A stretch of 64,000 nt of DNA. Origin: Deltaproteobacteria bacterium. GTDB taxonomy: Bacteria; Desulfobacterota; Desulfobacteria; Desulfobacterales; C00003060. The translations under genes and the position numbers were made by a program. The stretch lies in assembly GCA_003647275.1 (NCBI GenBank), contig QMMN01000002.1, positions 21,726 through 85,725 of the forward strand. The letters run 5' to 3'. Shown one piece after another: positions 1 through 19,108 of the stretch (positions are counted from its first letter, which is position 1; each line of letters begins with the position of its first letter). The notes beneath the pieces were generated by a model. The model was not told the origin of the DNA. It ran no database searches and saw only the letters and a list, made by a program, of their open reading frames with translations.

Positions 1-597
1 TTGCACAAAGAAGCGATCAAAAGCATGCCTGAATACCATGTCCCCTATTTTAGATTAGGCGAAAGTTTATTCAGGCATGGTAAGACAGAGGCCATTTACT
101 ACCTGGATCATGCCAATAGGTTGTGTGCGGCTTCTCTTCGAACTAAACTCCTCTTGGGCCTGGCATTTTTGAACAGGGATAAGCAAGCAGCTTACCGTTA
201 TTTCAAAGATGCCCTGGAAGTGTCTCCCATGTATGCCCCGGCCTGGGACGCGCTTGGGAGAATGCAGGAAGAATCTGGAGATTACGGAAAAGCCATCGAG
301 TTCTTTAATCTTGCGTTAAAGGCCAATCCCTTTTATGGGTTGGCATCGCTGGGTTTAGGCCGGGCCTATTTGGCGATGGGAAAATTGAACGAGGCCCTTA
401 AAGCCTTACACATAGCAGATGATATCTTACCCAACCATGTGGAATCGAGATTACAACTGACAAAACTCTTTTTGAAAATTGAAAAGTTTGAAGAGGCAGT
501 ATGTCAATGTAAAAGAATACTCGGAGAAGATCCCCAAAACAATGCTGCACAAAAACTTCTTGCTGAAATTAGCGATCGATATGTGGCAAGCGTATAA
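1..597 (+). CDS. TPR-repeat protein, C-terminal part (ORF open at the 5' window edge)
   Basis: The frame is open from base 1 to the stop at 595-597. The translation is a run of TPR-like units (AWDALGRMQEESGDYGKAIEFFNLALKANP; GLASLGLGRAYLAMGKLNEALKAL; LQLTKLFLKIEKFEEAVCQCKRILGEDP). It may be the tail of another GT-TPR protein like those downstream. Confidence 0.7.
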   Translation: MHKEAIKSMPEYHVPYFRLGESLFRHGKTEAIYYLDHANRLCAASLRTKLLLGLAFLNRDKQAAYRYFKDALEVSPMYAPAWDALGRMQEESGDYGKAIEFFNLALKANPFYGLASLGLGRAYLAMGKLNEALKALHIADDILPNHVESRLQLTKLFLKIEKFEEAVCQCKRILGEDPQNNAAQKLLAEISDRYVASV

Positions 598-1720: not shown

Positions 1721-3472
1721 ATGCCGGGAAGATGGCCAGTTTGCAAAAACATCCCATCAAAGAAATCCATTGAGAAAGGAACAAGACGACCAATGCAGCA
1801 AAAACTTCCAGAACGTTTTTCCATGACCACCTTAGAGAAAAACTTGGCGGCCCTGATGCCTGTCAACGAGGATCTGGTTCGGCGTATATGTCTTCCAGTT
1901 GACGGGACCCATATCCATTTCTTACAAGGTGGAGAGGCCCGATACCAGAGACACCGCACCCTTTTACCTTTTGTTGTTGGTAAAGAAGATTTTCTCAGTA
2001 CCTTGGGCGATGCCAACATCGGAGAAAATATATTCCTTTTTGGCATTGGATTGGGTGAACAGCTTGATTATCTGCTAGAGCATTTCAAGGAGGCCGGAAT
2101 CACAGTTTGGGACCGTGATCCCTGGCTCGTCCGTCTGGTATTAATGCAAAGAGATTACAGTCAGTATATAGGTTCCGGACAACTGCAATTACATATGTGC
2201 GCGGATCTTTTTGGCATGCTTGATACGGTCAAAAGCGCTTCAGTCATATGTCATCCTTTCTTGCGCTCGGTTTACGAGAATGAATACAAGCTGGTTGAGG
2301 ATGGTGTGGGGAAAAAACGAGCCATCATCTGTTCAGGAGATCTTTTTGTGGATGATGTAGGTAAAATTCTTAGGGGGTTTGGCTACTCTCTTTACACCCT
2401 CGAGATCAAGAAGTTGGCTCTTGAAGAAATAGAGACGGCAATCCAGCGTTTTGATCCCAATATGATTATAGCCATTAACTATACAAATGGCCTGGCGGAG
2501 ATGTGCCATAGCCAAGGCGTTGACCTGATTTGCTGGGAGGTAGATCCTGCCGCAGACCGCCTTAAACCGTGTAATGCACCTACAGATCGAGCTTTCATCT
2601 TTACCTACAGAAAGGCCAATGTGAGGGCATTTATCCAGGCTGGATTCAAAAACGTCGAGTACCTACCTCTTGCATCCAATATTGAAAAAAGGTTTCCAGC
2701 AGAACTTTCATTAAAGGAAAAAGAGAGCTATGGCTCGTCATTATCATTTGTTGGATCTAGCATGATTGAACAGGCCAAATCCTTTCGGGATATCTTTCTT
2801 TCTCATTATAAGGCTTACTGTGGAGGATCTCCCAATGCGGTAGAAGAGGGAAATCGCCTGTTGGAAGAGATCCTGTCGGTCCAGCGGCAAGATCTTTCCA
2901 CTTATCGGATTCCCGATCTCTTGAGTCAGTATTTTTCAGACTTTATTAGTTACCTGTTTAATCTCCCGGGGGCGCATAATCCGTTCATGCTGGTCGGTGA
3001 GATTGCTGCAGCTGAGAAGCGGATCAACTACATCGCCAGTCTCGGTCGCCTGGGCCTTAATGTGTGGGGAGACCAGGGGTGGCGGATAACAGAGCAATAC
3101 GGAGTCAAATATATGGGAAGTGCGGGCCATACCTATGAGATCAATAAGATTTATAGCGCTTCCCTCGTCAATGTGGATATCAACAGGCTCTATCAGGCCG
3201 ATATTGTAACCATGCGGGTCTTTGATATTATGGCCTGTGGCGGGTTTGTCCTGGCCGAATACAGCCGTGATCTGGACGAGCTCTTTGAGATTGGGAAGGA
3301 GGTTGAAGCCTACCATACACTTGATGAATTACTCTCAAAGGCCTCCTATTATCTGGATCACAGGGGTGAGGCATTAGAAATCGCCGAGCGCGGCCGGGAA
3401 GCGGTGCGAAACAACCATACCATAGAAAAACGCGTCAAGTACATGTTGAGTGTGGCCATGAATAACCAATGA
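1721..3472 (+). CDS. Glycosyltransferase: Maf-type N-terminal domain fused to a CgeB/DUF3880-like GT domain
   Basis: The C-terminus (NRLYQADIVTMRVFDIMACGGFVLAEYSRDLDELFEIGKEVEAYHTLDELLSKASYYLDH..EIAERGREAV) matches the CgeB/YkvP-type Glyco_trans_1_2 pattern. The N-terminus (TLEKNLAALMPVNEDL ... FLFGIGLGEQLDYLLEHF..ITVWDRDPWLVRLVL) is visibly homologous to the N-terminus of the Maf protein at 4761-7031. The start is uncertain (ATG 1721, 1793 or 1823). Confidence 0.7.
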   Translation: MPGRWPVCKNIPSKKSIEKGTRRPMQQKLPERFSMTTLEKNLAALMPVNEDLVRRICLPVDGTHIHFLQGGEARYQRHRTLLPFVVGKEDFLSTLGDANIGENIFLFGIGLGEQLDYLLEHFKEAGITVWDRDPWLVRLVLMQRDYSQYIGSGQLQLHMCADLFGMLDTVKSASVICHPFLRSVYENEYKLVEDGVGKKRAIICSGDLFVDDVGKILRGFGYSLYTLEIKKLALEEIETAIQRFDPNMIIAINYTNGLAEMCHSQGVDLICWEVDPAADRLKPCNAPTDRAFIFTYRKANVRAFIQAGFKNVEYLPLASNIEKRFPAELSLKEKESYGSSLSFVGSSMIEQAKSFRDIFLSHYKAYCGGSPNAVEEGNRLLEEILSVQRQDLSTYRIPDLLSQYFSDFISYLFNLPGAHNPFMLVGEIAAAEKRINYIASLGRLGLNVWGDQGWRITEQYGVKYMGSAGHTYEINKIYSASLVNVDINRLYQADIVTMRVFDIMACGGFVLAEYSRDLDELFEIGKEVEAYHTLDELLSKASYYLDHRGEALEIAERGREAVRNNHTIEKRVKYMLSVAMNNQ

Positions 3473-3510
3473 GATTTAAAAACCCGCGTTAAAGCCATAC
3501 AACATGAGTT

Positions 3511-4728
3511 ATGAATATCCTTATCATCGGTAATGCCTATCCGCCTACCTATATGGGTGGTGAATCGGCCCATCTCTACAATCTGGCAACCAGTCTGAAA
3601 AAAAGGGGACACACGATTTTTGTGGCTCATCCGGCCGCCAGTACGGACGGCCGAACGAGCATCCGGTTGTCTCGCTCAGGCGAGGGGATCCATGTTTATC
3701 GGCTCTGTTTGCCTGCAGAAGATAGGGGGCTTGAAAGGCTAAATATCATGCTTATGGATATTTTTCAGGGTCTGCTTGAAAAAGGAGACGAGATAGACAT
3801 CATCCACTGCCATTCAAACAAGTTTTCATCAAGTATGGAGGTTCTGACGAAAAGATATTCTGTCCCGCTGGTTACAACCATTCACGCCGTCCACATAGCC
3901 ATGGTCCATGACTTGATTAAGAGGAAGGGTACTCCTGTGGATCCCCATGAACTGGCACTTTACACAGCAGACACAGAACGTCAGAAAGCTATCTGTGCTA
4001 AAAGTGCGAGGATTATCGCCATCAGCAGGGCCATGAACTCATTGGTCGTTAAATATTTTGACGCTGATCCTCAAAAAGTAAGGCATGTCTATAACGGCAT
4101 TAACTTTGATCGTTTAGCCAATTTTTCCGACCAGAGCCAAATGGAGGAAATCAAGAAACGACTCGGGATTGGCGACAGAACAGTGATCCTGTTTGCAGGT
4201 CGAGTTGAACCGGTCAAGGGAATTCAGCCTCTCGCTTCAGCCTGCAAGACCCTGTGCGAAAGGTATGACCAGATTGCCTTTATCTTTTTGGGCAATGGGA
4301 GTGCAGATACCTGGTTAAGGTCTTATTTGGCCGAATGCAGAAACGTATATTTTATTGACTGGCTGTCCTTTGATGGCGTGATACCCTACTATCATTTGGC
4401 AGATATCGCAGTCGTTCCTTCACTCATAGAACCCTTTGGCTTGGTGGTTATTGAGTCCATGGCCTGCTGTACATGCGTGATTTCATCCAATGCCGATGGC
4501 TTGGATGAGATCATTACTCATAACCTGAATGGCGTAAAGATTCCTCTGGTCGTGGATGAATACGGGGATCGAGATATCAGGGCAGAAGATATTTGCAGCG
4601 CCCTGGAAAGGGCTATTTGCGAGCCTGACTGGCGCCAGTCACTGGCTGACCAGGGTGTTATGAGGGCCAAGGAATTCACTCTGGATCACATGGCCGAGGA
4701 GGTAGAAAAAGTCTATTCAGAGCTTTGA
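3511..4728 (+). CDS. GT4-family (GT-B, glycosyl transferase group 1) glycosyltransferase
   Basis: N-terminus MNILIIGNAYPPTYMGGESAHLYNLATSLKKRGHTIFV. C-terminal EX7E region SLIEPFGLVVIESMACCTCVISSNADGLDEIITHNLNGVKI. Confidence 0.9.
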   Translation: MNILIIGNAYPPTYMGGESAHLYNLATSLKKRGHTIFVAHPAASTDGRTSIRLSRSGEGIHVYRLCLPAEDRGLERLNIMLMDIFQGLLEKGDEIDIIHCHSNKFSSSMEVLTKRYSVPLVTTIHAVHIAMVHDLIKRKGTPVDPHELALYTADTERQKAICAKSARIIAISRAMNSLVVKYFDADPQKVRHVYNGINFDRLANFSDQSQMEEIKKRLGIGDRTVILFAGRVEPVKGIQPLASACKTLCERYDQIAFIFLGNGSADTWLRSYLAECRNVYFIDWLSFDGVIPYYHLADIAVVPSLIEPFGLVVIESMACCTCVISSNADGLDEIITHNLNGVKIPLVVDEYGDRDIRAEDICSALERAICEPDWRQSLADQGVMRAKEFTLDHMAEEVEKVYSEL

Positions 4729-4760
4729 ACTGTACAAGTGAACGCATTCCCCATCCCGAT

Positions 4761-7031
4761 TTATTGGGACTCCAGGGAATCTTCAAAGATTTTGGATAAA
4801 CGCTGCTTCAGTCCCTCGGCTTCTGTGTCGTTCGGGAGTGAGCGGGCAAGTTCCCGGAACATCAGATATGCGTCAATGCGGGAAGCGGATTGGATAATTC
4901 CCCGCGCTTTCTTTATGAGGTCTCTTTTTTCCTCCTCTATATAAGTAAGAACGAGCCGTCGTTTTTTCCCTGCTTTGGCATCCAGTCTTGCTCCTTCAAG
5001 CAGGCTGGTCGCTTCTGACAACAGTCCCATTCTTGCCTTGAGTTTGGCCATGAGGAGGCGGATTTCAAAACCATTGTCCGGGATGATGTTATCAAGCTCC
5101 ATGGCGGCTTCATGGTGAAGGCCATTATCTGACAAGAAATAGATGTAAGAGATACGTTCAACCAGTTTCTCATCTTGCGACGTTTGATCCATGCCTTTGC
5201 CCACCCTTGCCATTTCCATTTGTTGTTCAGAAATTCGTTCCAGAATTTTTTCCGATTCAGTTTTCATTTTTGTAAAGGCCTCAAGATTTTTTCTGATTTC
5301 AGCACTCAGACGCCGCCCTGGTTCCGAGATAGATGCGATCTTTTGAGTCTCACGCTTGAGTTTGAACCAGATGGAAGACATATATTGATTTAGCAATGGG
5401 TTTTGAACCAAAAAATCCTGTATCTCCTTCCCGTCCTGATTGATTTGGTTTGCCAGTCCCTGGTCTATCTGGCCCCTCTTGAGCCTTTTGTCAAATTCTT
5501 CTAACGCCTTAATGCCGCGAGAGCAAATTTCCATTGTCTTTTGGAAGACCTTGGATAAGGCTTTCATACTGGATACAGGAAGCTTCTCTCTAACGGTCTC
5601 CAGAGATAAAGACGCAGATGGCAGCTTCTTTGAAAGGTCAGGCAGATTTTTACAGACCTCATCTATGTCCATTTCTAAAGTCCCCTCGATACGAGCGCCT
5701 GACAAAGTCGCGTTGATCGGTCTTGCTTCCGAGCATTTGATGTGCCACTCAAGGTGACGTTTAATATCTGAAAGGTGGGGAAAGGTCCTGACTATTGTAT
5801 TATGCATGCCAGGGGCCTTGATTAAACGAGGATCATCGGGCTCAAGGTGCCTCCTGAAGTGGTGCCCGTTAGCATGGGTAACATTGTCCACGGCCAGATC
5901 AAGTCCGATCAGGATAATGGGATCTGCCTCCAAGTAAACAGCCAGATTAAAGGCAAAAACGGCCACAGAGGTTCCTGTGCTTAAGGAGAGTCGGTGGTGC
6001 TTGTGGGAAGGAAGCATAGGGTAAAGTGCTTTTTGAGGTACGGCAAAACAAGGCCCAAGGTATTTTTTGACGAATTTAGGATGGGAGGAGGAAGAAAAAA
6101 TCAGCGGGGTCTGCTGGGCAAATCGGGTATGTTTTAGCATACCAAAAGACTCAATATTCTTATCAGATGTCAAGACGAAGTCTGCTGCAATGCCATTGGA
6201 TAGTAGGTTCCTCCAGGAGGCAGCAAATGCGAAAACAAACATCTTTTTTTGCGCCTGGCTTATTTTTTCCATGGACCGATCCAACGAGGGGCCAGGGCCT
6301 ACCAGAAGGACAGGCTTGCCCTTGACTAGAGATTTGAGTATTTCCACACCGGGCACCAGAGATACAATGATGGTGTTTTCGATCTCATTTTGAATTGAGG
6401 TCCTGCCAATTAGGGTGGCATTTTTTATCAGTACATTCGCATAACGATAGGCCTCCTCTATTTGTTTGCCCCATTTTTTATATTCAATGGATATCGCCTC
6501 GCTTCTGGGATCCACAATAACTTTAATTTTCTTATGTAGAAGCCCTTTGCTGAGGAGATGCAGAAAAAGATTCTCAATGGCCTTTTGGTCGGGCTTTACA
6601 ATGTGCAGGTTATCAGTTCTGATGGGCTCGACAAGGTCCACTTGGTGCAATGCCAGCTTAAGCAGCCAAGGATTTGGCTCCAGGACCATGATATGATGTC
6701 CATGGGCCATCTTTTGAAGAATTGCACTGACAGTATATCCCAGACCCATTCCCACCAGACAGGTCATACTACCGCTTGAAAGGTCCATGCCATGAATGAC
6801 CGAAAACTCTGCTTCAACAGAGGGGGATCTCTCATAATAGAGAACCTGGTTTCCGGATGATAGCCGAATCAGGAGATTAGCTGAACCGTCGTTGGTTGGC
6901 AGGGGGCTTATACCTGGGTCCGCTTGGGCGCCATCAAGCCAGGTGTGCAATTCCGGGTTAAGATCGAAGAGCGCCTCCATGTTCTTTTTAAAGATATGGC
7001 TGCCTTCGAGAGGTAGTTTTTGTTTTAACAT
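4761..7031 (-). CDS. maf: Motility accessory factor (Maf, DUF115/MptE-like) putative flagellin glycosyltransferase with a long helical C-terminal extension
   Basis: 756-aa ORF. DUF115 core motifs are VLLVGPGPSLDRS, FVLTSDKN and GTSVAVFAFNLAVYLEADPIILIGLDLA. N-terminus FKKNMEALFDLNPELHTWL. It lies next to the flagellin locus, convergent with the GT4 gene and divergent from the 1416-aa GT gene. Confidence 0.8.
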   Translation of the reverse strand: MLKQKLPLEGSHIFKKNMEALFDLNPELHTWLDGAQADPGISPLPTNDGSANLLIRLSSGNQVLYYERSPSVEAEFSVIHGMDLSSGSMTCLVGMGLGYTVSAILQKMAHGHHIMVLEPNPWLLKLALHQVDLVEPIRTDNLHIVKPDQKAIENLFLHLLSKGLLHKKIKVIVDPRSEAISIEYKKWGKQIEEAYRYANVLIKNATLIGRTSIQNEIENTIIVSLVPGVEILKSLVKGKPVLLVGPGPSLDRSMEKISQAQKKMFVFAFAASWRNLLSNGIAADFVLTSDKNIESFGMLKHTRFAQQTPLIFSSSSHPKFVKKYLGPCFAVPQKALYPMLPSHKHHRLSLSTGTSVAVFAFNLAVYLEADPIILIGLDLAVDNVTHANGHHFRRHLEPDDPRLIKAPGMHNTIVRTFPHLSDIKRHLEWHIKCSEARPINATLSGARIEGTLEMDIDEVCKNLPDLSKKLPSASLSLETVREKLPVSSMKALSKVFQKTMEICSRGIKALEEFDKRLKRGQIDQGLANQINQDGKEIQDFLVQNPLLNQYMSSIWFKLKRETQKIASISEPGRRLSAEIRKNLEAFTKMKTESEKILERISEQQMEMARVGKGMDQTSQDEKLVERISYIYFLSDNGLHHEAAMELDNIIPDNGFEIRLLMAKLKARMGLLSEATSLLEGARLDAKAGKKRRLVLTYIEEEKRDLIKKARGIIQSASRIDAYLMFRELARSLPNDTEAEGLKQRLSKIFEDSLESQ

Positions 7032-7340: not shown

Positions 7341-10300
7341 ATGCAACAACAGTTTCAGCAAATAATAACTGCCATTCATAAGAAAAGATGGTCCTTTCAA
7401 CCTTTAACCAAAAAGGAGCTCGTATTTCTTTTGGCAGATTGTATCCTGGATAGACGGCTCTTTTCCTCGCCCAACTGGAACTGGCGCTATGGTGGGGTCA
7501 GATACATCCCGGATAAACAGACCGATCCAGAGCCTTCAAAAATACTGGTTTTGCAATGGCCTGGGACATTGGGCGATGTGGCCATGAGCGCTCCGGTATT
7601 CTCCATATTAAGGCAAAAATATCCCCATGCAGAAATCTCCTTTTTATCTGGCAAAACAGCTCAGTATATCTTTATGGGCAACCCTGACATAGATGTTTTG
7701 ATGGACAATCCTCTTGACCCTTATTTAGAGAAGGTTATGCATGGGCGTTCCATTGACCTTGAGGCCCTGTTGAGAGACATCTCCAGCCTTGTCGAATTAT
7801 TGACAAAAAACGAATATATTCTCCTGGTCAATCTTCAGGTTTTGCCCATGTCGGCTGTCCTGGCTAAGCTGTCTGGAGCCAAGCATACGATCGGAATGAC
7901 CCTGACGCCCGATGGGATGCCTGTTATCCACGGAAATATCTGGGCGGCTTATCTATTTGGGGTTTCCGCAAGCCTCATGAGGAGATATAACCTGCTCCAC
8001 CGTACAGAGATCTTTAACCTGATGATTGATGAACAGGGGAGGTTTATACCTGACTCCACGCTTTACATCAATCATGAAGCGGCGGAGAATGTTCAGGCAT
8101 TTTTTGACCACCACAGGATAAAAGATGAAGATCTTGTGGTGGGCATCAATCCCATGGCCGGGACCCCGATCAGAAAGTGGGGGCATTACGATCAGTTGGC
8201 CAAAAGAATCAAAGATGAATTAGGAGCCAAGGTGATCGTCTTCGGGGCAAAGGCTGAAGAAGATAAGGTTGATGAAATTGTCCGAAGAGCAGGAAAAGAT
8301 GTTATCAAAGCCACACAGTTCAATTTACAGGAGCTGATGGCGGCCATCTGCGGTTGTGATCTCTTCATCACCAATGATACCGGCCCCATGCATTTGGCAT
8401 GTTTGCTTAAACGCAAAGTCATAGCCCTTTTCGGGCCAACGTCCTTTCAAGAAGTAGGGCCTTGGCAGACCGAATTCCACGTACTTCAGTCATCACTGTG
8501 CCGGGATTGCTACAAACAGGTGTGTCCCTATCCTGAAAAATACTGCATGAACCAGATAAAGTTGGAAGATGTTTTCAAGGTCGTGGAGAAGGTCGTGAAA
8601 GGCGAGCTTGTTGCTGACATTGGGGACCATCTAATTTATCGGTCGTCAAAGGATATAGATCCCCGTGAGGCTGAGGATGCGTTTCTTGGGCAGATGATTT
8701 TTCAAGTGTTCAAAGTAAAAGGCCAAGGCATAGAAAGGGCTCCGGAAAGACCCCCAGAGGCTTTTAGGGAGACCGAGGGGCTCATGAAGGAATACAGCCA
8801 TGTCAAGAGCATGGTTAAAAAGGCAATCAACTACTTCAATATGCCGGCATCCGTCAATCTACAAAAGCTCCAGGAGATCCATCAGTCTATCGAGAGTGTT
8901 GATGAGATTTTAAAACCCATCGTGGTGATCAATGCGCTTGAATTTTTGGACAGAAGGATTCCCTTAAAAGAAAACCTTGATGCCTATCGCAACTTCTATG
9001 ACAGTCTTCTCAAGGACCTTGAGATCATGATGAGTTGCATCAGTGCGCAACCCAAAAAGGCGGTCAGATTTGGTCAAGACGAGAAAAGAGGACAAGCCAC
9101 ATTGCCAATGGACGACAATAAAGATTCCATTCCTATGATTGCGGAGATTCATCACCATCCTTTGATTAGTGTGCACATGATCGTGTGGAACCAAGAGAAG
9201 TATATAGGCGATGCTATTAGAAGCGTATTAGATCAAACCTACCAAAACTATGAGCTGATCATTGTTGATGACGGGTCAACCGACAACACAAGACAAATCA
9301 TCGAAACTTTCAGATCCGATAAGATCAAATACCACCTTAAAGAACATAGTGGCGTTGTAGCATCAAGGAACTATGCCTGTGATAAATGTGCTGGTGATTA
9401 CATCGCATTCTTGGATTCAGATGACATGTACGAACCGACTATGCTTGAAAAAGAAGTAGCTACCTTATTGAGAAACCCTGACTTGGATGTGGTGTATACC
9501 AATCTTAAGATTATCGATGAAAACGGAAATGAAACAGGAGCCGTATGGACATACAAAGACTATGAGTCCCAAGAATTGATACCAGCTCTCTTTCGTGCTG
9601 GTCAAAATATTACGCCCTTCCCCTCGATGATGGTGACAAAGAGAATCTCAGATAAAGCGGGAGGGTTTGATTCAGATTTTATAATTAACGAAGACAGCGT
9701 TTATACTGCGAAGTTGGCAAAACACGGGAAATTTAAGCATATCAATCTTCCCCTTTATAAGTATCGTCGCCATGGTTCTAACATCTCCCACCGAAGAAGC
9801 AGTTTAAAAGAGAGATCGGCAAGCACCGCTTTGATGCTTACAAAAATGCTGGAAATGTTTTCAAAGGAAGAAATTTTTCCGGAAATTCACTGGGCTGCCA
9901 TGCCCGATAAAGCAAAAGAGGCAGAATTCAACTTCCAGGTGGCCAGGGTATTCTGGGAACATTGCAAGGCCTATTTAACACATGAATGTCATCATAACCT
10001 ATTGGAAGGAGCGAATACATTTTTGGGCAAATGCCTGACAGTCGATCCGACCCACAGAGGCGGGATCAATCTCGCCAAGGAGTTAAATTCATTGTCTGAG
10101 ACAATTCAGGATAGAAGTGGAGAGGCTCCGACCAAAGTTGAGGAGAAGGTTGAATCCACAAAACACAAACTAAGGATTCTTTACCTTGCAGACTGCCGAA
10201 GTCAACACACAAAAAGGTATGTGTGCTTTTTCAAGGACCGGGGCCATGAGGTCCATATCTTTGACACTTCCGAGCATGGGGAGGGCCTGGAGGGTATTCA

Positions 10301-11591
10301 ATTACACTTTCCCCAAACACCACAAAACGATGAATCTAACGACAAGTATGAAGACCTGTTTATCCAGCGTGTATTTCAGCTTAACAGCCTTATTGACCGA
10401 ATAAAACCTGACATCCTCCATGGTCATTACCTGACAGAGCGCTGCTGGTGGGGAGCACTCACGGGCTTTCAGCCCTATGTGCTCACATGTTGGGGGTCCG
10501 ATATATTTTTGGATACGAAACTTAACGATTTTAATCGGAGGTTTAGTGAGTTTTGTCTAAAGACAAGTCCCTTGGTCACAGCCGATTCCATGGATTTACT
10601 TCGGGCGTCCACAAACTTAAGAGGGTTTTCAGATGGTGTGAAATATATACCCTTTGGGATTGATGTGGAGCTGTTTAGACCGGGTCTTGATACCTCTTCT
10701 TTGGCCAAAAAATTAGGAATCAATGGATTAAGGGTTGTCCTCAGCCCCCGGCAGTTTAGACCTCCGGCCAATATAGACGTCCTCATAAAAGCGATTCCAA
10801 AGATCATATCCAAAATACCAAACACCGTTTTTATTTTAAAGAACTATCTAGGCGAAGGGACAGCCTATGAGGAATATAAAAAGTATCTTCATGACTTGGT
10901 CAAAGAACTTAATGTTGAGAGTCACGTCACCTTTATGGACAATGTGAGTTTTGATGAAATGCCTATCCTTTATAATCTTGCAGATGTGATGGTCACCTTG
11001 CGGGACACGGATGGCTCTTCCTGTTCCATGTTAGAATCTATGTCTTGTAAGACGCCGGTGGTAGCCAGTGACATTGAAAGCATGCGGGAATGGATTATGG
11101 ATGGGGAAAACGGAAGGATCGTTAACCAAAACGACCCAGATTCCGTCGCAGATGCCATTTCAGAAATATTACTGGATGATGAGAAAAGACGGAAATTCCA
11201 AGAAGCAAGCCATGCCATAGTTTGCCAGAAAGCAGATTATCGAAAAAACTGGCTTGAGATGGAACAGCTCTACTATGAGGTTAGTCAAAAGAGCATAGAG
11301 GGGCCCCTTTCAAGTGGTTTCCCAGATTCAGATATATCGATAATCTATGGGAATCTCCGAACAGGATGGCATTCTATCGCATCCCATAACCTTGATAAAG
11401 GGAGGGAGGCTTTTGCCAAGATACTGGAGGCTTCCCAGCTCACTGCGCACAGCTACATGAGGGCCTTAATTGGATTGGCAAGGATAGCTTGGATCAAAGG
11501 AGATACAAAGGAAGCTAAAGCCTATTACATGGGGTGTTTAAAACTTTTACAAGGCTTTGAGCTTGATACACGCCTGGACATCAAAGGATAG
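7341..11591 (+). CDS. Giant multi-domain glycosyltransferase: GT9 (heptosyltransferase-like) + GT2 + GT4 + C-terminal TPR
   Basis: 1416 aa.
- GT9 part, about aa 65-400: [65 protein letters not shown].
- GT2 part, about aa 608-830: [52 protein letters not shown].
- GT4 part, about aa 942-1310: [66 protein letters not shown].
- TPR-like tail: [25 protein letters not shown]. Confidence 0.8.
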   Translation: [1416 protein letters not shown]

Positions 11592-12826: not shown

Positions 12827-14128
12827 ATGAAAATCACCTTGGTGCAGCCTAGACCAGGTAAATATAACGCCACCTACGTTCACGAACCACTCAATCTTGG
12901 ATATCTGGCAAGTTATTTAAAGGAGCGAGGATTTGATGAGGTGGGTATCATCGTCTCCGCATTTTGGGAAGATGATAAGGAAATCGTTAAACGATGTAGG
13001 GAATCGGATGTGGTAGGTTTTACGGCTACGTCGCCTATGATGGCACATGCTCTCTCTCTGGCAAAGGACATAAAGGGGAAAGATCCGGAAATCATAACGG
13101 TTTTCGGTGGGCCTCATCCGACAATAGAGCCCGATGGGACCCTCCAGAATCCAGCTGTGGATTATGTAGTCCGAGGTGAAGGGGAACAAACTTTTCTGGA
13201 ATTGATTGAATCAATCGATGCGTGCCGTTCAACACTTAAAATCAAGGGGCTCTCCTTTAAAGATAGGCATGGTTGCATTATCCATAATCCGAGACGTCCG
13301 CTTATAAGTGACTTGGATGTCCTTCCCTTTCCAGACCGGGATTTGCTTGGTCAAGCTCGTTTCCTTGACATTGGCTATGAGAAGTACGGTGATCGCGGAG
13401 CATGGGTCTTATCCAGTAGGGGCTGCCCCTTCAGATGCACCTATTGCGCCTCCAACAAGGTTTGGACAAGGACTTGGCGCGCACGTTCACCTGAGAATAT
13501 CATTGTCGAGATAAGGTCCTTAAAATTACACTATAACGTTGATCGCATAAACTTTGCCGATGACACGTTTACTATTTCCAAAAAGAGGGTCGTGGATTTC
13601 TGCAAGAAAATGATGATAGAAAAACTGGACGTTGTGTGGGCATGCAATGCTCGGGTTGACACTGTGGACGCGGAGCTGTTTGCCCTGATGAAACGCGCCG
13701 GGTGTACTGAGGTGTGGATGGGCGTTGAAAGTGGTTCGACAAAGATTTTGAAAGAGATAAAAAAGGAAATTACGCCCAAACAGATCATAGAGGCATTTAA
13801 GGGAGCCAAGGCAGCTGGTTTAAAGAGACGTGGATATTTTATGATTGGATCAAGGAGTGAATCTCTTGAGACCATAAAACAGACCGAGGCTCTTGTTGAT
13901 GCCATAGAACCTGATCGGCTCGCTTTTAGCATTATGACCCCTTACCCAGGGTGTGAAGAATTTGAGCTCTGGAAGAAATACAGCGGAAACCACAAGATCG
14001 AATGGTCTGAGATAGACCTATTGGAGACCGAAGCGGTAATGATGGAAACCCGGTTTCTTTCTAAAGACGAATTGCGAGCTGAACACCGTAGGCTCAAGGA
14101 AAAATACGCTTCCATATGGCGGGTGTGA
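12827..14128 (+). CDS. B12-binding-domain radical SAM enzyme (class B type)
   Basis: The N-terminal B12-binding-like fold is MKITLVQPR..LNLGYLASYLKERGFDEV..VVGFTA. The radical SAM cluster motif is SSRGCPFRCTYCAS (CxxxCxxC). It is followed by elp3-like GVESGS. Confidence 0.85.
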   Translation: MKITLVQPRPGKYNATYVHEPLNLGYLASYLKERGFDEVGIIVSAFWEDDKEIVKRCRESDVVGFTATSPMMAHALSLAKDIKGKDPEIITVFGGPHPTIEPDGTLQNPAVDYVVRGEGEQTFLELIESIDACRSTLKIKGLSFKDRHGCIIHNPRRPLISDLDVLPFPDRDLLGQARFLDIGYEKYGDRGAWVLSSRGCPFRCTYCASNKVWTRTWRARSPENIIVEIRSLKLHYNVDRINFADDTFTISKKRVVDFCKKMMIEKLDVVWACNARVDTVDAELFALMKRAGCTEVWMGVESGSTKILKEIKKEITPKQIIEAFKGAKAAGLKRRGYFMIGSRSESLETIKQTEALVDAIEPDRLAFSIMTPYPGCEEFELWKKYSGNHKIEWSEIDLLETEAVMMETRFLSKDELRAEHRRLKEKYASIWRV

Positions 14129-16132: not shown

Positions 16133-19108
16133 ATGACTCATAAAATTAGGTTAGCATATGTACACAGTTATTTGCCGTTAGGTGGGGTTGAGAATCACAT
16201 TCTTCAACTGTGCAGGCACCTGGACAGGAATCAGTTTGAAATCGAGGTCTGTCTCTTCCGAGGAGGCGGGCCTATGCTGCCCCTGTTTGAAGAAATCGAT
16301 ATACCAGTGGAAATCATTCCTGTGCTTGACCAAAAAGGGGCCATTAGCGAGAGAAAATTCCAAGACTTCGTGAAAAAACTGAGAGAATTTGACGTGTTCC
16401 ACAGTTGGTATGGAGGCGGGCAACTACACGTCGGGTTTCAGGCAGCTTATATGGCCAAAGTCCCTGTTCAGGTGCAGAGCATTGCCTGGCCGGTCCCAGC
16501 CTTTGGCCAACATTTTGATGCCGTGATCCTGGAAACCGACTTCGTGTTGAGAATTCAGCAAAAAGCCGGCGTAAAGTCTCGTATGGTGCGCATCAATCCG
16601 GGAATCGACCTCTCACGTTTCGATCCCAAAACTATCCGCCCTGCGGTCCAGTTCGATGGTCAGGTTGTCGGGCGGGTAAGTCGCCTTGTGCCAGAGAAAG
16701 ATCCCGAATCCTTTGTGCGGTCTGCAGCCCTGGTTCAGAAGCGCCACCCAGAGGTGAATTTCCTCATTGTGGGGGATGGTCCTCTTCGCCATGAGCTTGA
16801 GGTGTTGGCTGGTCAGCTTGATGCTAATGTTCAATTTTATGGAGAAACCACGAACGTGCCTGGCGTTTTAGCTGCCATGGATGTCTTTGCTTATTCCACC
16901 CTAGGCGACTCGTTCGGCTTCGTCAATGCCGAGGCCATGGCCATGGCAAAGCCTGTCATCAGCACTCGAGTTGCCGCCATCCCCGAAGTGGTAGAAGATG
17001 GTCGAAGTGGAATTCTGGTTCCTCCGAAAGATGTGGACATGCTATCCGATGCGATCTGCTACTTAATTGAGCATCCCGAGGAGGCCAAGCGGTTGGGACA
17101 AAGAGGACGCCAGATCATCGAGCAGCGATATAACCTCAAGCGATATATAAGTCAACATGCACGGCTGTATGAGGAACTGTACTTCCAAAAACAAAATTCC
17201 AAGCATGGGCACCTTATCACTCCGAGGATTCAGCAGTCATCTCAAAATAATCATTCAGTTGAGACTATAGGGAGCCTAAGCACTGCAACGACTTCCTCGC
17301 GCAGAAAACGGATTCTCATTATCCAGGAAAATGGCCGCCACGAGCGCAACCGCCAGTTTCGGGAATGCTTTGCTCTGCAGAGAGCATTTGGTCACCTGGG
17401 CGTGTCCGCAGACGTGTGGGGTTTGGGGCACGACAATTTCCGTCAACCGTTTGATGACATCGTTGGTCAGTATGACGCCGTGCTTTCACTGGAAAATTAC
17501 GACACAGGCTGGCACCCAGACCTTGCAACGCTGAAGATACCTAAAGCCTTCTGGTGCATCGACGCGCACATGGGCGTTGAACGGTATCTGGATTTTGTGC
17601 GCCGCCACCGGTTTGACTTGGTTTTCAATGCCACAGAACACTTTGTTGACCGCTTTACCGGACTTGCTGAAACCAGTCTTTGGTTGCCGAACGCATATGA
17701 TAGTTTTTTGGTGGACAAGATTTTTAATGTTCAGAAAACAGTGTCCCTTGGCTTCTGTGGCAACGTTGTCAACCGTGGGGAGTGGATCGAATATCTCAAT
17801 GAGCGTTGGAACCTTAGGCACGACGAGATGGTCATTGGCCCCGACATGGTACGTGCGATTAACAGTTATCAGGTCCACTGGAATCGTAATTTCTCGATTG
17901 ACATCAACTACCGCACCTTCGAGACTCTGGGTTGCTGCACCTTCCTGCTTACGAACTACACGCCGGGCCTCGAAAAACTCTTCACGTTGGGTAAGCACCT
18001 CGTGGTTTATGAAACCCGGGACGATCTTGACGAGAAGATTTCTTACTACCTTACGCATCCTGAAGAGCGGGAACAGATCGCCAGACAGGGGTATGATCAT
18101 GTCCGGAAGAACCACAAATATATCCATCGCGCGGAGCAAATCCTCGATGCGCTAGGCTTCACCGTTTCTGACGCGGTACACTATAGTCAGAGAATTCAGA
18201 TTTATGAAATTACGCAGAGAATGATCTCTATCAAGGAATATCTGTTCGTGTCTGGCGCCACAAAATCGGGAACAACTTTATTGGCTAACGCCCTGAGTTT
18301 CTCGGAAAGAGTTTCATTCTTGAGAAATGCAGATGGAAAGATAGAAGAAGGCCAGTGGGTTCAGGACGTTTATGAGTGGGGAAAGGGAAATCAAGATCTC
18401 ACAGAAGAATATCACATGACAGAAGATCACCCCCTGGCAACCGCAGAAAACCGGATTCGGTTGTACAGGTGTTGGCTTCGCTACTGGGACATAAAAAAGC
18501 CTATTTTGGCTGAAAAAAGTCCTCATAACATCATTAAGACAAGATTCCTTCAGGCTCTGTTTCCGAATTCCAAGTTCATCATACTGGTGAGGAACGGTGT
18601 CGTCCAAGCGACCGGGGAAACGCTGCAGCAAAAAAGATCTCCCCTTGTTTGCTGCCAAGAGTGGGTGAATGCCTACCAGATGTTGATGCGCGATTTGCCC
18701 CACTTAAACGAGTACCTGATCGTGCGCTATGAAGATTTGACAAACAATGTCGAAGCAACGTTTGATAAGATCTGTAAGTTTATCGGGATCCCAAGGATTA
18801 ATGTCAAAGATAAGTATTTCTATGTCCATGCCTTTCGGGATGGAATTAAACGGCCAGATTTCAACAAAATCCAGGATATGAATAGGCCACATATCCAGAA
18901 TTTTCTTACTAGATTTGACCAGGAAACCCAGCAGGCAATGCTTCGCATTTGTGAGCCTGCAATGACAATGTTTGGCTATACCACAGATATAGCCAAGTAT
19001 CATGAATACATAAAAAACCATAACTATCGTCTCTTGGTCACGGATACTGGTAAACAAGAAACACAAAGAGAAAAACAAACAAAAACCTCTCTCGCCTGTA
19101 TCCAATGA
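16133..19108 (+). CDS. Tri-domain enzyme: GT4 + CgeB/DUF3880-like GT + C-terminal sulfotransferase
   Basis: 991 aa.
- GT4, about aa 1-350: RLAYVHSYLPLGGVENH, DSFGFVNAEAMAMAKPVISTRVAAIPEVVEDGRSGILV.
- CgeB-like GT, about aa 390-680: INYRTFETLGCCTFLLTNYTPGLEKLFTLGKHLVVYETRDDLDEKISYYLTHPEEREQIARQGYDHV.
- Sulfotransferase, about aa 700-960: 5'-PSB loop FVSGATKSGTTLLANAL, 3'-PB region ILAEKSPHNIIKTRFLQALFPNSKFIILVRNGVVQATGE, and IVRYEDLTNNVEATFDKICKFIGI. Confidence 0.8.
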   Translation: MTHKIRLAYVHSYLPLGGVENHILQLCRHLDRNQFEIEVCLFRGGGPMLPLFEEIDIPVEIIPVLDQKGAISERKFQDFVKKLREFDVFHSWYGGGQLHVGFQAAYMAKVPVQVQSIAWPVPAFGQHFDAVILETDFVLRIQQKAGVKSRMVRINPGIDLSRFDPKTIRPAVQFDGQVVGRVSRLVPEKDPESFVRSAALVQKRHPEVNFLIVGDGPLRHELEVLAGQLDANVQFYGETTNVPGVLAAMDVFAYSTLGDSFGFVNAEAMAMAKPVISTRVAAIPEVVEDGRSGILVPPKDVDMLSDAICYLIEHPEEAKRLGQRGRQIIEQRYNLKRYISQHARLYEELYFQKQNSKHGHLITPRIQQSSQNNHSVETIGSLSTATTSSRRKRILIIQENGRHERNRQFRECFALQRAFGHLGVSADVWGLGHDNFRQPFDDIVGQYDAVLSLENYDTGWHPDLATLKIPKAFWCIDAHMGVERYLDFVRRHRFDLVFNATEHFVDRFTGLAETSLWLPNAYDSFLVDKIFNVQKTVSLGFCGNVVNRGEWIEYLNERWNLRHDEMVIGPDMVRAINSYQVHWNRNFSIDINYRTFETLGCCTFLLTNYTPGLEKLFTLGKHLVVYETRDDLDEKISYYLTHPEEREQIARQGYDHVRKNHKYIHRAEQILDALGFTVSDAVHYSQRIQIYEITQRMISIKEYLFVSGATKSGTTLLANALSFSERVSFLRNADGKIEEGQWVQDVYEWGKGNQDLTEEYHMTEDHPLATAENRIRLYRCWLRYWDIKKPILAEKSPHNIIKTRFLQALFPNSKFIILVRNGVVQATGETLQQKRSPLVCCQEWVNAYQMLMRDLPHLNEYLIVRYEDLTNNVEATFDKICKFIGIPRINVKDKYFYVHAFRDGIKRPDFNKIQDMNRPHIQNFLTRFDQETQQAMLRICEPAMTMFGYTTDIAKYHEYIKNHNYRLLVTDTGKQETQREKQTKTSLACIQ

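What the first reader, a model, noticed from the sequence alone, without database searches (positions are those of the whole stretch)
1721..7031. The Maf N-terminal domain is reused on a different catalytic scaffold
Seen in sequence: the first 170 aa or so of the 583-aa CgeB-like GT align by eye with the N-terminus of the neighbouring Maf protein.
- CgeB-like GT: TLEKNLAALMPVNEDLVRRI ... FLFGIGLGEQLDYLLEHFKEAGITVWDRDPWLVRLVLMQRD.
- Maf: FKKNMEALFDLNPELHTWL ... CLVGMGLGYTVSAILQKMAHGHHIMVLEPNPWLLKLALHQVD.
- The catalytic halves are unrelated (Glyco_trans_1_2 versus DUF115).

Inference: the shared module may be a substrate- or flagellin-targeting domain shuffled between transferases. That would be a second targeting solution alongside the TPR domains.
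Basis: partly seen in the sequence, partly recalled or inferred. Interest (0 to 1): 0.55.

Follow-up and report, generated by a model that had tools for sequence, protein, structure and literature searches.

The report
Maf N-domain fused to GT-B glycosyltransferase
The first ~165 residues of this CgeB-like glycosyltransferase are a true relative of the N-terminal domain of the neighbouring Maf flagellin glycosyltransferase, and this fusion defines a widespread, unstudied, often flagellum-linked enzyme family; published experiments on Maf argue against this domain being what grips flagellin.

Summary
OBSERVATION CONFIRMED. Residues 35-200 of the 583-aa ORF (window 1823-2320) are homologous to the N-terminal domain of the Maf at 4761-7031(-). 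A family profile scores 36 bits on the Maf N-terminus against a maximum of 7.2 in 5000 shuffles. Maf_flag10_N is the only Pfam family hit (19 of 38 members). The confident N-domain model (pLDDT 94.9) has the Maf crystal structure 5MU5 as its best PDB match, ahead of class-I methyltransferases. The catalytic parts are unrelated: GT-B versus MptE-like/DUF115.

The fusion is old and common, not a local shuffle: 197 cluster representatives at E<=1e-10 and 80 MAG loci across several phyla.

INTERPRETATION ONLY PARTLY SUPPORTED. The module sits on two scaffolds, and many members lie in flagellar loci; in some it is the only annotated GT, flanked by flagellin genes. However, Shewanella Maf fragments that keep the N-region do not bind flagellin (a C-terminal TPR or the adaptor GlfM does), and most of the 80 sampled loci show no flagellar genes within 10 kb. 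The domain is a truncated methyltransferase-like Rossmann fold with conserved ligand-contact positions. A conserved accessory or ligand-binding role is more likely than primary flagellin docking. Moderate interest.

The parts
1793..3472 (+). CgeB-like glycosyltransferase gene carrying the Maf-type N-domain. The longest ORF starts at 1721 (583 aa); the likely start is M25 at 1793 (559 aa).
   Evidence: ORF list. P0008 is 100% identical and called as 559 aa in two public assemblies. Pfam DUF3880 34.5 bits and Glyco_trans_1_2 103.8 bits. AF2 full-length model pLDDT 94.6, pTM 0.91.
1823..2320 (+). Maf-type N-terminal domain, 166 aa counted from M35. Layout: two helices (L..NL.AL, P.L..R), a beta-hairpin region (RICLPVDG.H...Y..HR), then a 4-stranded Rossmann-like core with GxGxG (G74/G76/G78), D/E97 at the end of beta2, D99-P100-W101, R104, D128, H144-P145, Y151 and E154.
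   Evidence: Family conservation. Sub-threshold Maf_flag10_N hit of 19.7 bits. HMM and hhalign matches to Maf. AF2 model pLDDT 94.9 with secondary-structure elements. Foldseek top hit 5MU5.
2321..3469 (+). GT-B catalytic body: an N-terminal Rossmann half containing DUF3880, a helical insert, and a C-terminal Glyco_trans_1_2 half.
   Evidence: Pfam. Foldseek matches to BshA, GlgM, MshA, PimA and other GT4 GT-B enzymes, E down to 8.8e-9.
3511..4728 (+). GT4 glycosyltransferase lying between the two genes. It is part of the island but does not carry the module.
   Evidence: Pfam Glycos_transf_1 / Glyco_transf_4. No N-domain HMM hit.
4761..7031 (-). Maf (motility-associated factor) glycosyltransferase gene, 756 aa.
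   Evidence: Pfam MptE-like 113.4 bits. PDB 5mu5_A E 1.5e-6. NCBIfam PseD-like 85.6 bits, far below the cut-off of 670.
6417..7031 (-). Maf N-terminal domain (aa 1-205), the homologue of the GT N-domain. Contains GMGLGY and VLEPNPWLLKLAL.
   Evidence: Maf_flag10_N 20.8 bits, sub-threshold. GT-family HMM 33.6-36 bits. hhalign 96.3%. Weak alignment to 5MU5 residues 77-166.
5886..6353 (-). Maf central catalytic domain (MptE-like / MAF_flag10 / former DUF115), aa 227-382.
   Evidence: Pfam PF01973. Alignment to 5MU5 residues 273-430.
26444..27646 (+). Flagellin gene, the presumed ultimate acceptor of the island's glycosyltransferases. It lies 23 kb downstream of the GT.
   Evidence: Pfam Flagellin_N + Flagellin_C. 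FliD, che genes and fliF-G-H-I-J-K and flgD follow.

Best explanation
WHAT IT IS. The gene at 1793-3472 encodes an ordinary member of a widespread, uncharacterised family. In this family, a roughly 165-residue domain homologous to the Maf N-terminal domain (Pfam Maf_flag10_N) is permanently fused to the front of a CgeB-like GT-B glycosyltransferase.

SHOWN:
- The homology, by profile, profile-profile and fold comparison.
- The domain is a discrete module in front of a complete GT-B fold.
- The fusion is ancient and found across phyla.
- In this window it sits with a Maf in a GT-rich island at the head of a flagellar gene cluster.
- In several other lineages the gene lies next to Maf, or directly between flagellin genes.

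INFERRED:
- The enzyme acts in flagellin glycosylation, either on flagellin itself or on its glycan. The GT-B body transfers a sugar from a nucleotide sugar.
- The N-domain is a truncated class-I-methyltransferase-like Rossmann half: four parallel strands, preceded by a helix/hairpin extension seen here only in these two families.
- Both families keep the two classic nucleotide/SAM-contact elements: GxGxG after beta1 and an acidic residue ending beta2. The GT family additionally keeps near-invariant polar residues at the ends of beta3 (D128) and beta4 (H144-P145), plus W96, D99, R104, Y151 and E154.
- I therefore think the domain most likely plays the same conserved accessory role in both enzymes: a small-ligand-binding or acceptor-side positioning module held rigidly against the catalytic domain.
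- It is probably not the primary flagellin-docking determinant. In characterised systems that role is supplied by TPR domains, Maf C-terminal domains or the adaptor GlfM.
For: HOMOLOGY.

DISCRETE MODULE: the isolated domain is predicted with pLDDT 94.9 and the same secondary structure as in the full-length model (pLDDT 94.6, pTM 0.91). The remainder matches complete GT4 enzymes.

ANCIENT AND WIDESPREAD:
- 482 word-index hits at E<=1e-10; 116 of the 120 listed cover 96-100% of the query, most at 533-595 aa.
- 546 cluster representatives at E<=1e-3, 197 at <=1e-10.
- 80 MAG loci from Desulfobacterota, Planctomycetota, Myxococcota, Nitrospirota, Acidobacteriota and others.
- The N-domain stays directly in front of the CgeB body even in larger fusions with GT2 domains.

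FLAGELLAR LINK:
- The window island runs into flagellin, FliD, che genes and fliF-K.
- Maf is immediately downstream of the GT in L011 and L090.
- The GT is flanked by flagellins and is the only annotated GT within 10 kb in L089. It sits among flagellin/FliD/FliW/FlgK genes in L088, is 9.6 kb from flagellin in L085, and is near flagellin or FliD in L012, L013, L018, L019 and L025.

LIGAND-POCKET PATTERN (mapped on DSSP strands 70-73, 93-97, 121-125 and 140-143):
- G74 100%, G76 97%, G78 97%.
- D/E97 100%, D99 100%, R104 100%.
- D128 97%, H144 96%, Y151 99%, E154 99%.
- GxGxG and the beta2 acid are also kept in three Maf N-domains.
- 25 of 165 N-domain positions are >=90% conserved, against 33 of 165 in the acceptor half of the GT-B fold.
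- Weak methyltransferase similarity: 3CBG at E 0.42 over the motif I-III region and the Foldseek methyltransferase hits. This agrees with the published description of the 5MU5 N-domain (PMC11339370).

NOT THE FLAGELLIN BINDER: Maf-1(1-420) and Maf-2 do not bind flagellin (bioRxiv 10.1101/2023.12.03.569772).
Against: - No ligand binding was or could be tested here, and I had no model coordinates to confirm that the conserved residues line one pocket or face the GT-B active site.
- The fold is truncated (4 strands rather than 7), so it may not bind SAM or a nucleotide at all. The conserved residues could equally form an inter-domain or protein-protein interface.
- In L089-type loci the N-domain is the only non-catalytic domain available. 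No TPR protein, Maf or adjacent adaptor-like small ORF was found. That keeps acceptor recognition by the N-domain alive.
- The Shewanella data are negative two-hybrid results on Maf proteins. I could not verify that their N-regions match PF20157, and they say nothing directly about this GT family.
- Most Planctomycetota and Myxococcota loci show no flagellar genes within 10 kb, so 'flagellin glycosylation' may hold only for part of the family. Conversely, that test would have missed the window's own flagellin, which is 23 kb away.
Confidence: 0.55

Rival explanations
1. One reading: the shared N-domain is a flagellin- (or substrate-) targeting module. It brings either catalytic scaffold to flagellin, as a second solution alongside TPR domains.
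For: - The same module sits on two unrelated transferases in a flagellar glycosylation island.
- In L089-type loci the N-domain GT is the only annotated GT, sits between flagellin genes, and has no TPR domain, Maf or adjacent adaptor. The N-domain is then the only accessory domain available.
- One sister paralogue on the same CgeB scaffold carries weak TPR matches in the equivalent position, and TPR is the flagellin binder in FlmG.
- The flagellin D0/D1 regions are conserved across bacteria, so a conserved binder is conceivable.
Against: - Maf-1(1-420) keeps the N-region yet fails to bind flagellin or complement, while the C-terminal TPR alone binds. Maf-2 needs GlfM.
- The published 5MU5 analysis assigns FliS/flagellin resemblance to the C-terminal domain.
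- The conservation pattern sits on canonical Rossmann ligand-contact positions.
- 73 of 80 genome loci lack flagellar or Maf genes within 10 kb, and many hosts are Myxococcota or Planctomycetota.
Confidence: 0.2
2. The N-domain is a docking platform for a partner protein rather than for flagellin. Candidates are a GlfM/FliS/FliT-like helical adaptor, or N-domain-to-N-domain pairing that assembles Maf and the GT-B enzyme into one glycosylation complex.
For: - Maf-2 (N-region plus catalytic domain only) binds the four-helix adaptor GlfM, and the binding site has not been mapped.
- Maf and the GT are adjacent in the window, L011 and L090.
- The window's Maf has the most GT-like N-domain of the four Mafs scored: 35.8 bits against 21.8, 12.2 and -1.6.
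Against: - No conserved small ORF lies beside the GT in the flagellin-flanked loci. The only conserved small ORFs there are about 3 kb away, one of them FliS (Pfam-annotated in L089).
- No neighbour family is shared by more than 14 of 80 loci.
- Most family members have no Maf nearby.
- GlfM did not bind Maf-1 even though Maf-1 also has an N-region.
Confidence: 0.15
3. The N-domain is still an active SAM-dependent methyltransferase, for example methylating the sugar or flagellin, which would make the protein bifunctional.
For: - Motif I GxGxG, an acidic residue at the end of beta2, D128 after beta3, and an H-P-F motif at the motif-IV position are conserved.
- Foldseek finds N-methyltransferases, KsgA/Dim1 and PrmC.
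Against: - Only 4 of the 7 strands of the class-I fold are present, and the substrate-binding half is missing.
- No methyltransferase Pfam family is hit by any of 38 members.
- The best PDB sequence match is E 0.42.
- A complete, separate methyltransferase gene lies immediately upstream (757-1641).
Confidence: 0.04
4. The similarity is chance, or generic Rossmann/methyltransferase-fold convergence, and not a specific common origin with the Maf N-domain.
For: - Pairwise BLASTP is only E 7e-4 over a GxGxG-containing stretch.
- Both Pfam hits are below the gathering threshold.
- The family profile does not find 5MU5 by sequence.
Against: - 36 bits against a maximum of 7.2 bits in 5000 shuffles.
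- hhalign 96.3% over 120 columns, including the non-Rossmann N-terminal helices.
- Maf_flag10_N is the only Pfam family hit, by 19 of 38 members.
- 5MU5 ranks first by fold, ahead of all methyltransferases.
- Maf is the only other ORF in the 64-kb window that matches.
Confidence: 0.03

Closest known systems
Maf / PseD / PseE motility-associated-factor flagellin glycosyltransferases (Pfam PF20157 Maf_flag10_N + PF01973 MptE-like; crystal structure 5MU5, Magnetospirillum magneticum AMB-1)
   Same: The N-terminal domain is homologous: same helix-helix-hairpin-Rossmann layout, GxGxG, an acidic residue ending beta2, and the [PW]L..L.L helix. 5MU5 is the best structural match. Both occur in flagellar glycosylation islands, here side by side.
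   Different: The catalytic domain is a GT-B (CgeB-like, Glyco_trans_1_2) instead of the MptE-like/DUF115 domain. There is no Maf C-terminal helical or TPR domain. The N-domain is far more conserved in the GT family (W96, D99, P100 and R104 are invariant) than among the Mafs compared. The donor is probably a different class of nucleotide sugar (untested).
CgeB-like glycosyltransferases (Pfam PF13524 Glyco_trans_1_2 with PF12996 DUF3880; named after Bacillus subtilis spore maturation protein CgeB)
   Same: The catalytic body matches both Pfam models above threshold and folds as a GT-B. Public sources label relatives 'spore maturation protein CgeB'.
   Different: It carries an extra 165-residue Maf-type N-domain. 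The hosts are uncultured MAGs from Desulfobacterota, Planctomycetota, Myxococcota and other phyla, and the context is flagellar rather than spore-related.
FlmG-class flagellin O-glycosyltransferases (Caulobacter crescentus; N-terminal TPR + C-terminal GT-B)
   Same: The logic is the same two-part design: a non-catalytic N-terminal domain followed by a GT-B catalytic domain, encoded in flagellar loci. One adjacent paralogue on the CgeB scaffold has weak TPR matches ahead of the catalytic domain (L007).
   Different: The N-domain is a Rossmann-like Maf-type domain, not TPR. I could not test whether FlmG's GT-B domain belongs to the same Pfam family. Flagellin binding is shown for the FlmG TPR but not for this domain.
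Class I SAM-dependent methyltransferases (e.g. CCoAOMT-like 3CBG, KsgA/Dim1, PrmC)
   Same: Rossmann-like beta1-beta4 with motif I GxGxG, an acidic residue at the end of beta2, and polar residues after beta3 and beta4. They are the second-best structural matches.
   Different: Only four strands are present. No methyltransferase Pfam hit. The domain has an N-terminal helix/hairpin extension shared here only with Maf.

Membership tests
Pfam PF20157 Maf_flag10_N (domain family) | HMM score at or above the curated gathering threshold (23.5 bits) | tested here: not met
   The window GT scores 16.8 bits full-length and 19.7 bits as the isolated domain. The window Maf itself reaches only 20.8 bits. 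However, 19 of 38 family N-domains match at E<=0.01 (best 5.8e-6). P0022 and P0051 carry a precomputed PF20157 hit, P0033 scores 23.0 bits, and the L011 Maf scores 24.8 bits. The window protein is therefore a divergent relative detected at family level, not by the curated single-sequence cut-off.
Pfam PF20157 Maf_flag10_N (domain family) | Fold of the Maf N-terminal domain (degenerate Rossmann, 4 parallel strands flanked by helices) | tested here: met
   The AF2 model (pLDDT 94.9) has 4 parallel core strands plus helices. The top Foldseek PDB hit is 5MU5: E 1.2e-5, prob 1.00, TMq 0.59. hhalign to Maf N-domains gives 96.3%.
Maf glycosyltransferase family (whole protein) | Central MAF_flag10 / MptE-like (PF01973) catalytic domain following the N-domain | tested here: not met
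   The GT has no PF01973 hit. Its body is DUF3880 + Glyco_trans_1_2 with a GT-B fold. It is not a Maf. The neighbour at 4761-7031 is one: PF01973 113.4 bits against a cut-off of 34.6, and 5mu5_A at E 1.5e-6.
CgeB-like GT (PF13524 Glyco_trans_1_2 / PF12996 DUF3880) | HMM matches above the gathering thresholds | tested here: met
   103.8 bits (cut-off 25) and 34.5 bits (cut-off 25.2).
CgeB-like GT (PF13524 Glyco_trans_1_2 / PF12996 DUF3880) | GT-B two-Rossmann fold | tested here: met
   The full-length model (pLDDT 94.6) matches BshA, GlgM, MshA, PimA and others, E down to 8.8e-9 and TMt about 0.6.
FlmG-class flagellin glycosyltransferase | N-terminal TPR domain that binds flagellin | tested here: not met
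   No TPR Pfam hit in the GT. The N-domain is Rossmann-like. Flagellin binding is not testable with these tools.
FlmG-class flagellin glycosyltransferase | C-terminal GT-B domain of the FlmG type transferring Pse or Leg | not tested
   The GT-B fold is met, but no FlmG sequence was available for comparison. Donor specificity is unknown, and no nonulosonic-acid synthase gene was identified among the window ORFs I scanned.
Class I SAM-dependent methyltransferase | Motif I GxGxG after beta1 and an acidic residue at the end of beta2 | tested here: met
   G74/G76/G78 at 97-100% and D/E97 at 100%, located directly after strands 70-73 and 93-97.
Class I SAM-dependent methyltransferase | Complete seven-stranded sheet and a match to a methyltransferase family model | tested here: not met
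   Only four core strands before the GT-B begins. No methyltransferase Pfam family hit in 38 members. Best PDB sequence match E 0.42.
Class I SAM-dependent methyltransferase | Binds SAM and transfers methyl | not testable with these tools
   Requires biochemistry.

The most novel reading that the evidence does not exclude
The Maf_N + CgeB-type GT-B proteins are a third, autonomous class of flagellin O-glycosyltransferase, beside Maf and FlmG. In this class the Maf-type N-domain, rather than a TPR domain, a Maf C-terminal domain or a GlfM adaptor, supplies acceptor recognition, for example by binding the conserved flagellin D1 region or a flagellin-chaperone complex. This reading fits the loci where the protein is the only annotated glycosyltransferase and sits between flagellin genes (L089, L012-L025). 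It would also finally assign a function to the enigmatic Maf N-domain.
Probability: 0.18. Interest if true: 0.7.

Novelty: new variant of a known kind. Interest (0 to 1): 0.45.

Why it matters
The role of the Maf N-terminal domain is an acknowledged unknown: the literature calls its function "unclear". Finding the same domain rigidly fused to an unrelated GT-B scaffold gives a natural comparative handle on that question.

- The fusion defines a family of about 200 clusters at 50% identity that has no NCBIfam name. The full-text searches I ran for the architecture (CgeB with flagellin; PF20157/DUF3880) turned up no paper describing it.
- All 80 genome loci are from uncultured MAGs.
- Whatever the domain does should be common to two otherwise different enzymes.
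- The GT family's very strong conservation points to specific residues to mutate: D/E97, D99, R104, D128, H144, Y151 and E154.
- In some lineages the protein is the sole annotated glycosyltransferase embedded between flagellin genes. That makes it a candidate new class of flagellin-modifying enzyme and a compact system for reconstitution.

If the domain turns out to be only a structural or ligand-binding appendage, the finding is a tidy annotation improvement: these "CgeB" proteins are flagellar-island glycosyltransferases carrying a Maf_N domain.

Tried and rejected
- **Word-index search with the Maf N-terminus alone:** no hits at E<=1e-3. I had to build the Maf profile from only two sequences, found in neighbouring loci. 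A third Maf (L064) was dropped because its N-terminus misaligned and does not score with the GT N-domain HMM (-1.6 bits).
- **L001 as a natural split:** it looked like a separate N-domain ORF followed by a separate GT ORF, which would have argued for separability. Reading the DNA showed a deletion of about 30 codons plus a frameshift at the junction, so I rejected it as damage or an assembly error.
- **Family profile against PDB sequences:** it does not retrieve 5MU5; only an O-methyltransferase appears, at E 0.42. Only fold comparison links the domain to 5MU5.
- **Full-length fold search:** dominated by GT-B hits, with 5MU5 only at rank 37. The domain had to be modelled alone.
- **Exhaustive representative search:** it lists only the best 150 of 546 hits, all from the GT family. 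The weaker tail, where Mafs and any third architecture would sit, could not be inspected.
- **Single-query phmmer for the neighbouring MTase and GT4:** zero hits in 80 loci. I consider this too insensitive to mean absence.
- **Neighbour clustering:** no universally conserved partner gene.
- **GlfM-like small ORF next to the GT in flagellin-flanked loci:** none found. The only conserved small ORFs are about 3 kb away, one of them FliS; the other is an unannotated ~124-aa ORF beside it.
- **Recent gene conversion between the two window genes:** rejected. The core is only about one-third identical, and the fusion is shared across phyla.
- **FlmG's catalytic family:** the FlmG paper does not state a Pfam family, and I had no sequence.

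Full report
**1. What is at the coordinates**

The region 1721-7031 holds three genes:
- A 583-aa ORF on the + strand, 1721-3472.
- A GT4 glycosyltransferase, 3511-4728.
- A 756-aa ORF on the - strand, 4761-7031.

Pfam assigns the first to DUF3880 + Glyco_trans_1_2, the CgeB-like type, and the last to MptE-like (former DUF115), the signature of Maf flagellin glycosyltransferases. The Maf also matches the only solved Maf structure, 5MU5. An identical protein in public assemblies (P0008) is called from M25, giving 559 aa, so the gene probably starts at 1793.

**2. Is the claimed similarity real?**

Pairwise BLASTP gives only 28.9 bits (E 7e-4), over the stretch FLFGIGLGEQ...WDRDPWLVRLVL against LVGMGLGYT...LEPNPWLLKLAL. 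Both proteins hit the same positions of Pfam Maf_flag10_N, each below threshold.

I then collected the GT's family. There are 482 proteins at E<=1e-10. Of the 120 listed, 116 cover 96-100% of the query, most at 533-595 aa. From them I cut the N-terminal ~165 residues. The evidence from that set is as follows:
- An HMM of this domain scores 36.0 bits on the Maf N-terminus, against at most 7.2 bits for 5000 shuffles.
- Across every six-frame ORF of the 64-kb window, the Maf is the only other match.
- A profile-profile comparison with two Maf N-domains (the window's and one from locus L011) gives 96.3% probability, E 1.8e-9, over 120 columns.
- Half of 38 diverse family members hit Maf_flag10_N, and none hits any other Pfam family.
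- The AlphaFold2 model of the isolated domain (pLDDT 94.9) has 5MU5 as its best PDB match (Foldseek E 1.2e-5, TMq 0.59). Class-I methyltransferases follow at E values about 50-fold worse or more.

**3. Anatomy**

The full-length model is very confident (pLDDT 94.6, pTM 0.91).

The N-domain, numbered from M35, has:
- Two helices: L..NL.AL and P.L..R.
- A small beta-hairpin region: RICLPVDG.H...Y..HR.
- Four parallel strands alternating with helices.
- GxGxG directly after strand 1.
- An invariant acidic residue (D/E97) ending strand 2, followed by the invariant D99-P100-W101 and R104.
- D128 after strand 3 and H144-P145 after strand 4.
- Y151 and E154 in the closing helices.

This matches the published description of the 5MU5 N-domain: a degenerate Rossmann-like fold with four parallel strands and weak methyltransferase motifs, of unknown function (PMC11339370).

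The rest of the protein is a complete GT-B fold that on its own matches 360-380-aa GT4 enzymes. It is nevertheless strongly constrained: 25 of 165 positions are >=90% conserved, against 33 of 165 in the adjacent GT-B half.

**4. How widespread, and how old?**

- An exhaustive HMMER search of 1.84 billion representatives finds 546 at E<=1e-3 and 197 at E<=1e-10. The 150 listed are essentially all the fused architecture.
- A scan of one genome per species returns 80 loci, all from uncultured MAGs of Desulfobacterota, Planctomycetota, Myxococcota, Nitrospirota, Acidobacteriota, KSB1 and others.
- In larger fusions with GT2 domains, the N-domain still sits directly in front of the CgeB body.

The fusion is therefore ancient and stable, not a local exchange between the two window genes. 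Their cores are only about one-third identical.

A seemingly split version in L001 turned out to be a deletion plus frameshift.

**5. Genomic context**

In the window, the two genes lie in a large island of glycosyltransferases. It includes several GT2-TPR proteins, a 1416-aa GT9+GT2+GT4+TPR protein and a GT4+CgeB+sulfotransferase protein. The island leads into flagellin, FliD, chemotaxis genes and fliF-G-H-I-J-K/flgD.

Among relatives on long, pre-annotated contigs:

| Member (locus) | Identity | Context within +-10 kb |
|---|---|---|
| P0018 (L085) | 68% | 9.6 kb upstream of flagellin, in a similar island |
| P0053 (L088) | 48% | Between flagellin/FliD/FliT and GT2-TPR/CsrA/FliW/flagellin/FlgK |
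| P0068 (L089) | 46% | The only annotated GT; flagellin genes on both sides |
| P0106 (L090) | 43% | Followed immediately by a Maf |
| P0030 (L087) | 65% | GT island next to che genes |
| P0048 (L086) | 49% | Nothing flagellar |

In the 80 genome loci, only 7 show Maf, flagellin or FliD within 10 kb, and no neighbour family is shared by more than 14 loci. That window would also have missed the flagellin in the present case, which is 23 kb away. The family therefore has a clear flagellum-linked component spread over several lineages, plus a component (Planctomycetota, Myxococcota) whose context is different or unresolved.

**6. What the domain does**

For:
- It is shared by two unrelated transferases in flagellar islands.
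- In L089-type loci it is the only accessory domain present.
- One paralogue on the same CgeB scaffold carries weak TPR matches in the equivalent position, and the N-terminal TPR of FlmG is a proven flagellin binder.

Against:
- In Shewanella oneidensis, Maf-1(1-420), which is the N-region plus the catalytic domain, neither binds flagellin in two-hybrid assays nor complements. The C-terminal TPR alone binds.
- Maf-2, which consists of only the N-region and the catalytic domain, cannot bind flagellin without the four-helix adaptor GlfM (bioRxiv 10.1101/2023.12.03.569772).
- The 5MU5 analysis placed the FliS/flagellin resemblance in the C-terminal domain.
- The conserved residues fall on the four positions where Rossmann/methyltransferase folds contact an adenosine-containing ligand. 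The two most diagnostic of these, GxGxG and the acidic residue ending strand 2, are kept in the Maf N-domains as well.

My best-supported reading is that this is a conserved accessory module derived from the cofactor-binding half of a methyltransferase. It would do the same job in both enzyme types, either binding a small ligand or positioning the substrate against the catalytic domain. Primary flagellin docking would be provided elsewhere.

This mechanism is inference. I could test neither ligand binding nor protein-protein contacts. The targeting idea (about 0.2) and a partner-docking idea (about 0.15) remain open.

**7. Comparison with what is known**

The protein is not a Maf, because it lacks the PF01973 catalytic domain. 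It is a CgeB-like GT-B enzyme: both Pfam models are above threshold and the fold is confirmed. Its N-domain belongs to the Maf_flag10_N superfamily by profile and fold, although the window sequence itself stays under Pfam's curated cut-off (16.8-19.7 bits against 23.5). It resembles FlmG in overall logic (an accessory N-domain followed by a GT-B) but not in the nature of the N-domain.

The architecture is implicit in databases: P0022 and P0051 carry precomputed PF20157+PF13524. NCBIfam has no model for it, and my full-text searches for the architecture returned no paper on it.

**8. Verdict**

The 'shuffled module' description is fair in the evolutionary sense, but the event is ancient. The 'flagellin-targeting' function is not supported by the available experiments on Maf and remains a minority possibility.

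The novelty is a new variant of known kinds: a known domain on a known scaffold, in an uncharacterised, largely flagellum-associated family. Interest is moderate, mainly because it offers a second, highly conserved context in which to work out what the Maf N-domain does, and a candidate stand-alone flagellin glycosyltransferase in some lineages.

Noticed in passing
window 16133-19108 (+); also L085 11736-13025 and L090 2183-3004: A 991-aa tri-domain protein (GT4 + CgeB-like Glyco_trans_1_2 + sulfotransferase) sits in the island. Sulfotransferase or TPR-sulfotransferase genes recur beside the N-domain GT in two unrelated loci, which hints at sulfated flagellin glycans.
   Followed up: no
window 12827-14128 (+); L090 18741-20510; L006 11922-13550: A B12-binding radical SAM enzyme recurs in these glycosylation islands. 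It may modify the sugar.
   Followed up: no
window 7341-11591 (+): A 1416-aa single protein combines GT9 (heptosyltransferase-like), GT2, GT4 and C-terminal TPR domains. Gene callers start it 30 codons later, giving 1386 aa.
   Followed up: no
window 27891-31427 (+): The FliD filament cap protein is unusually long: 1178 aa, with the FliD_N and FliD_C domains far apart.
   Followed up: no
L001 1380-1680 (JGI 3300040951): A close homologue of the GT carries a deletion of about 30 codons plus a frameshift exactly at the N-domain/GT-B junction, so it is annotated as two ORFs. This is a pseudogene or an assembly error, not a natural split.
   Followed up: yes
window 6417-7031 (-) compared with L011, L090 and L064 Mafs: Of four Maf N-domains scored with the GT N-domain HMM, the window's own Maf scores highest (35.8 bits against 21.8, 12.2 and -1.6). 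It alone keeps the P-W-L motif (EPNPWLLKLAL). This could be coincidence, co-evolution with the co-resident GT, or an old partial conversion.
   Followed up: partly
L089 10001-11695 and its flanks; also L012, L013, L018, L019, L025: In one MAG lineage the N-domain GT is the only annotated glycosyltransferase within 10 kb and is flanked on both sides by flagellin genes, next to FlaG/FliD/FliS. This makes it a candidate stand-alone flagellin glycosyltransferase.
   Followed up: partly
L042, L049-L052 (Planctomycetota MAGs): The GT lies directly upstream of genes that look like histidine-biosynthesis genes (judged by eye from the cluster representatives, not checked against Pfam). It is preceded by several CgeB-like paralogues without the N-domain, and no flagellar genes lie within 10 kb.
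   Followed up: partly
window 1-597 (+) and L083 7018-8805: The truncated ORF at the window start is the C-terminal TPR end of a 595-aa protein annotated with a weak Glyco_trans_1_4 hit plus TPR. Its TPR end matches the C-terminus of L058 15720-17498, a CgeB-like paralogue without the N-domain. In this island TPRs occur C-terminal to GT domains as well as N-terminal.
   Followed up: partly
all 80 loci L003-L082: Every genome contigs locus carrying this family is a metagenome-assembled genome. No cultured organism appeared among the 80 best loci, which may explain why the family is unstudied.
   Followed up: no
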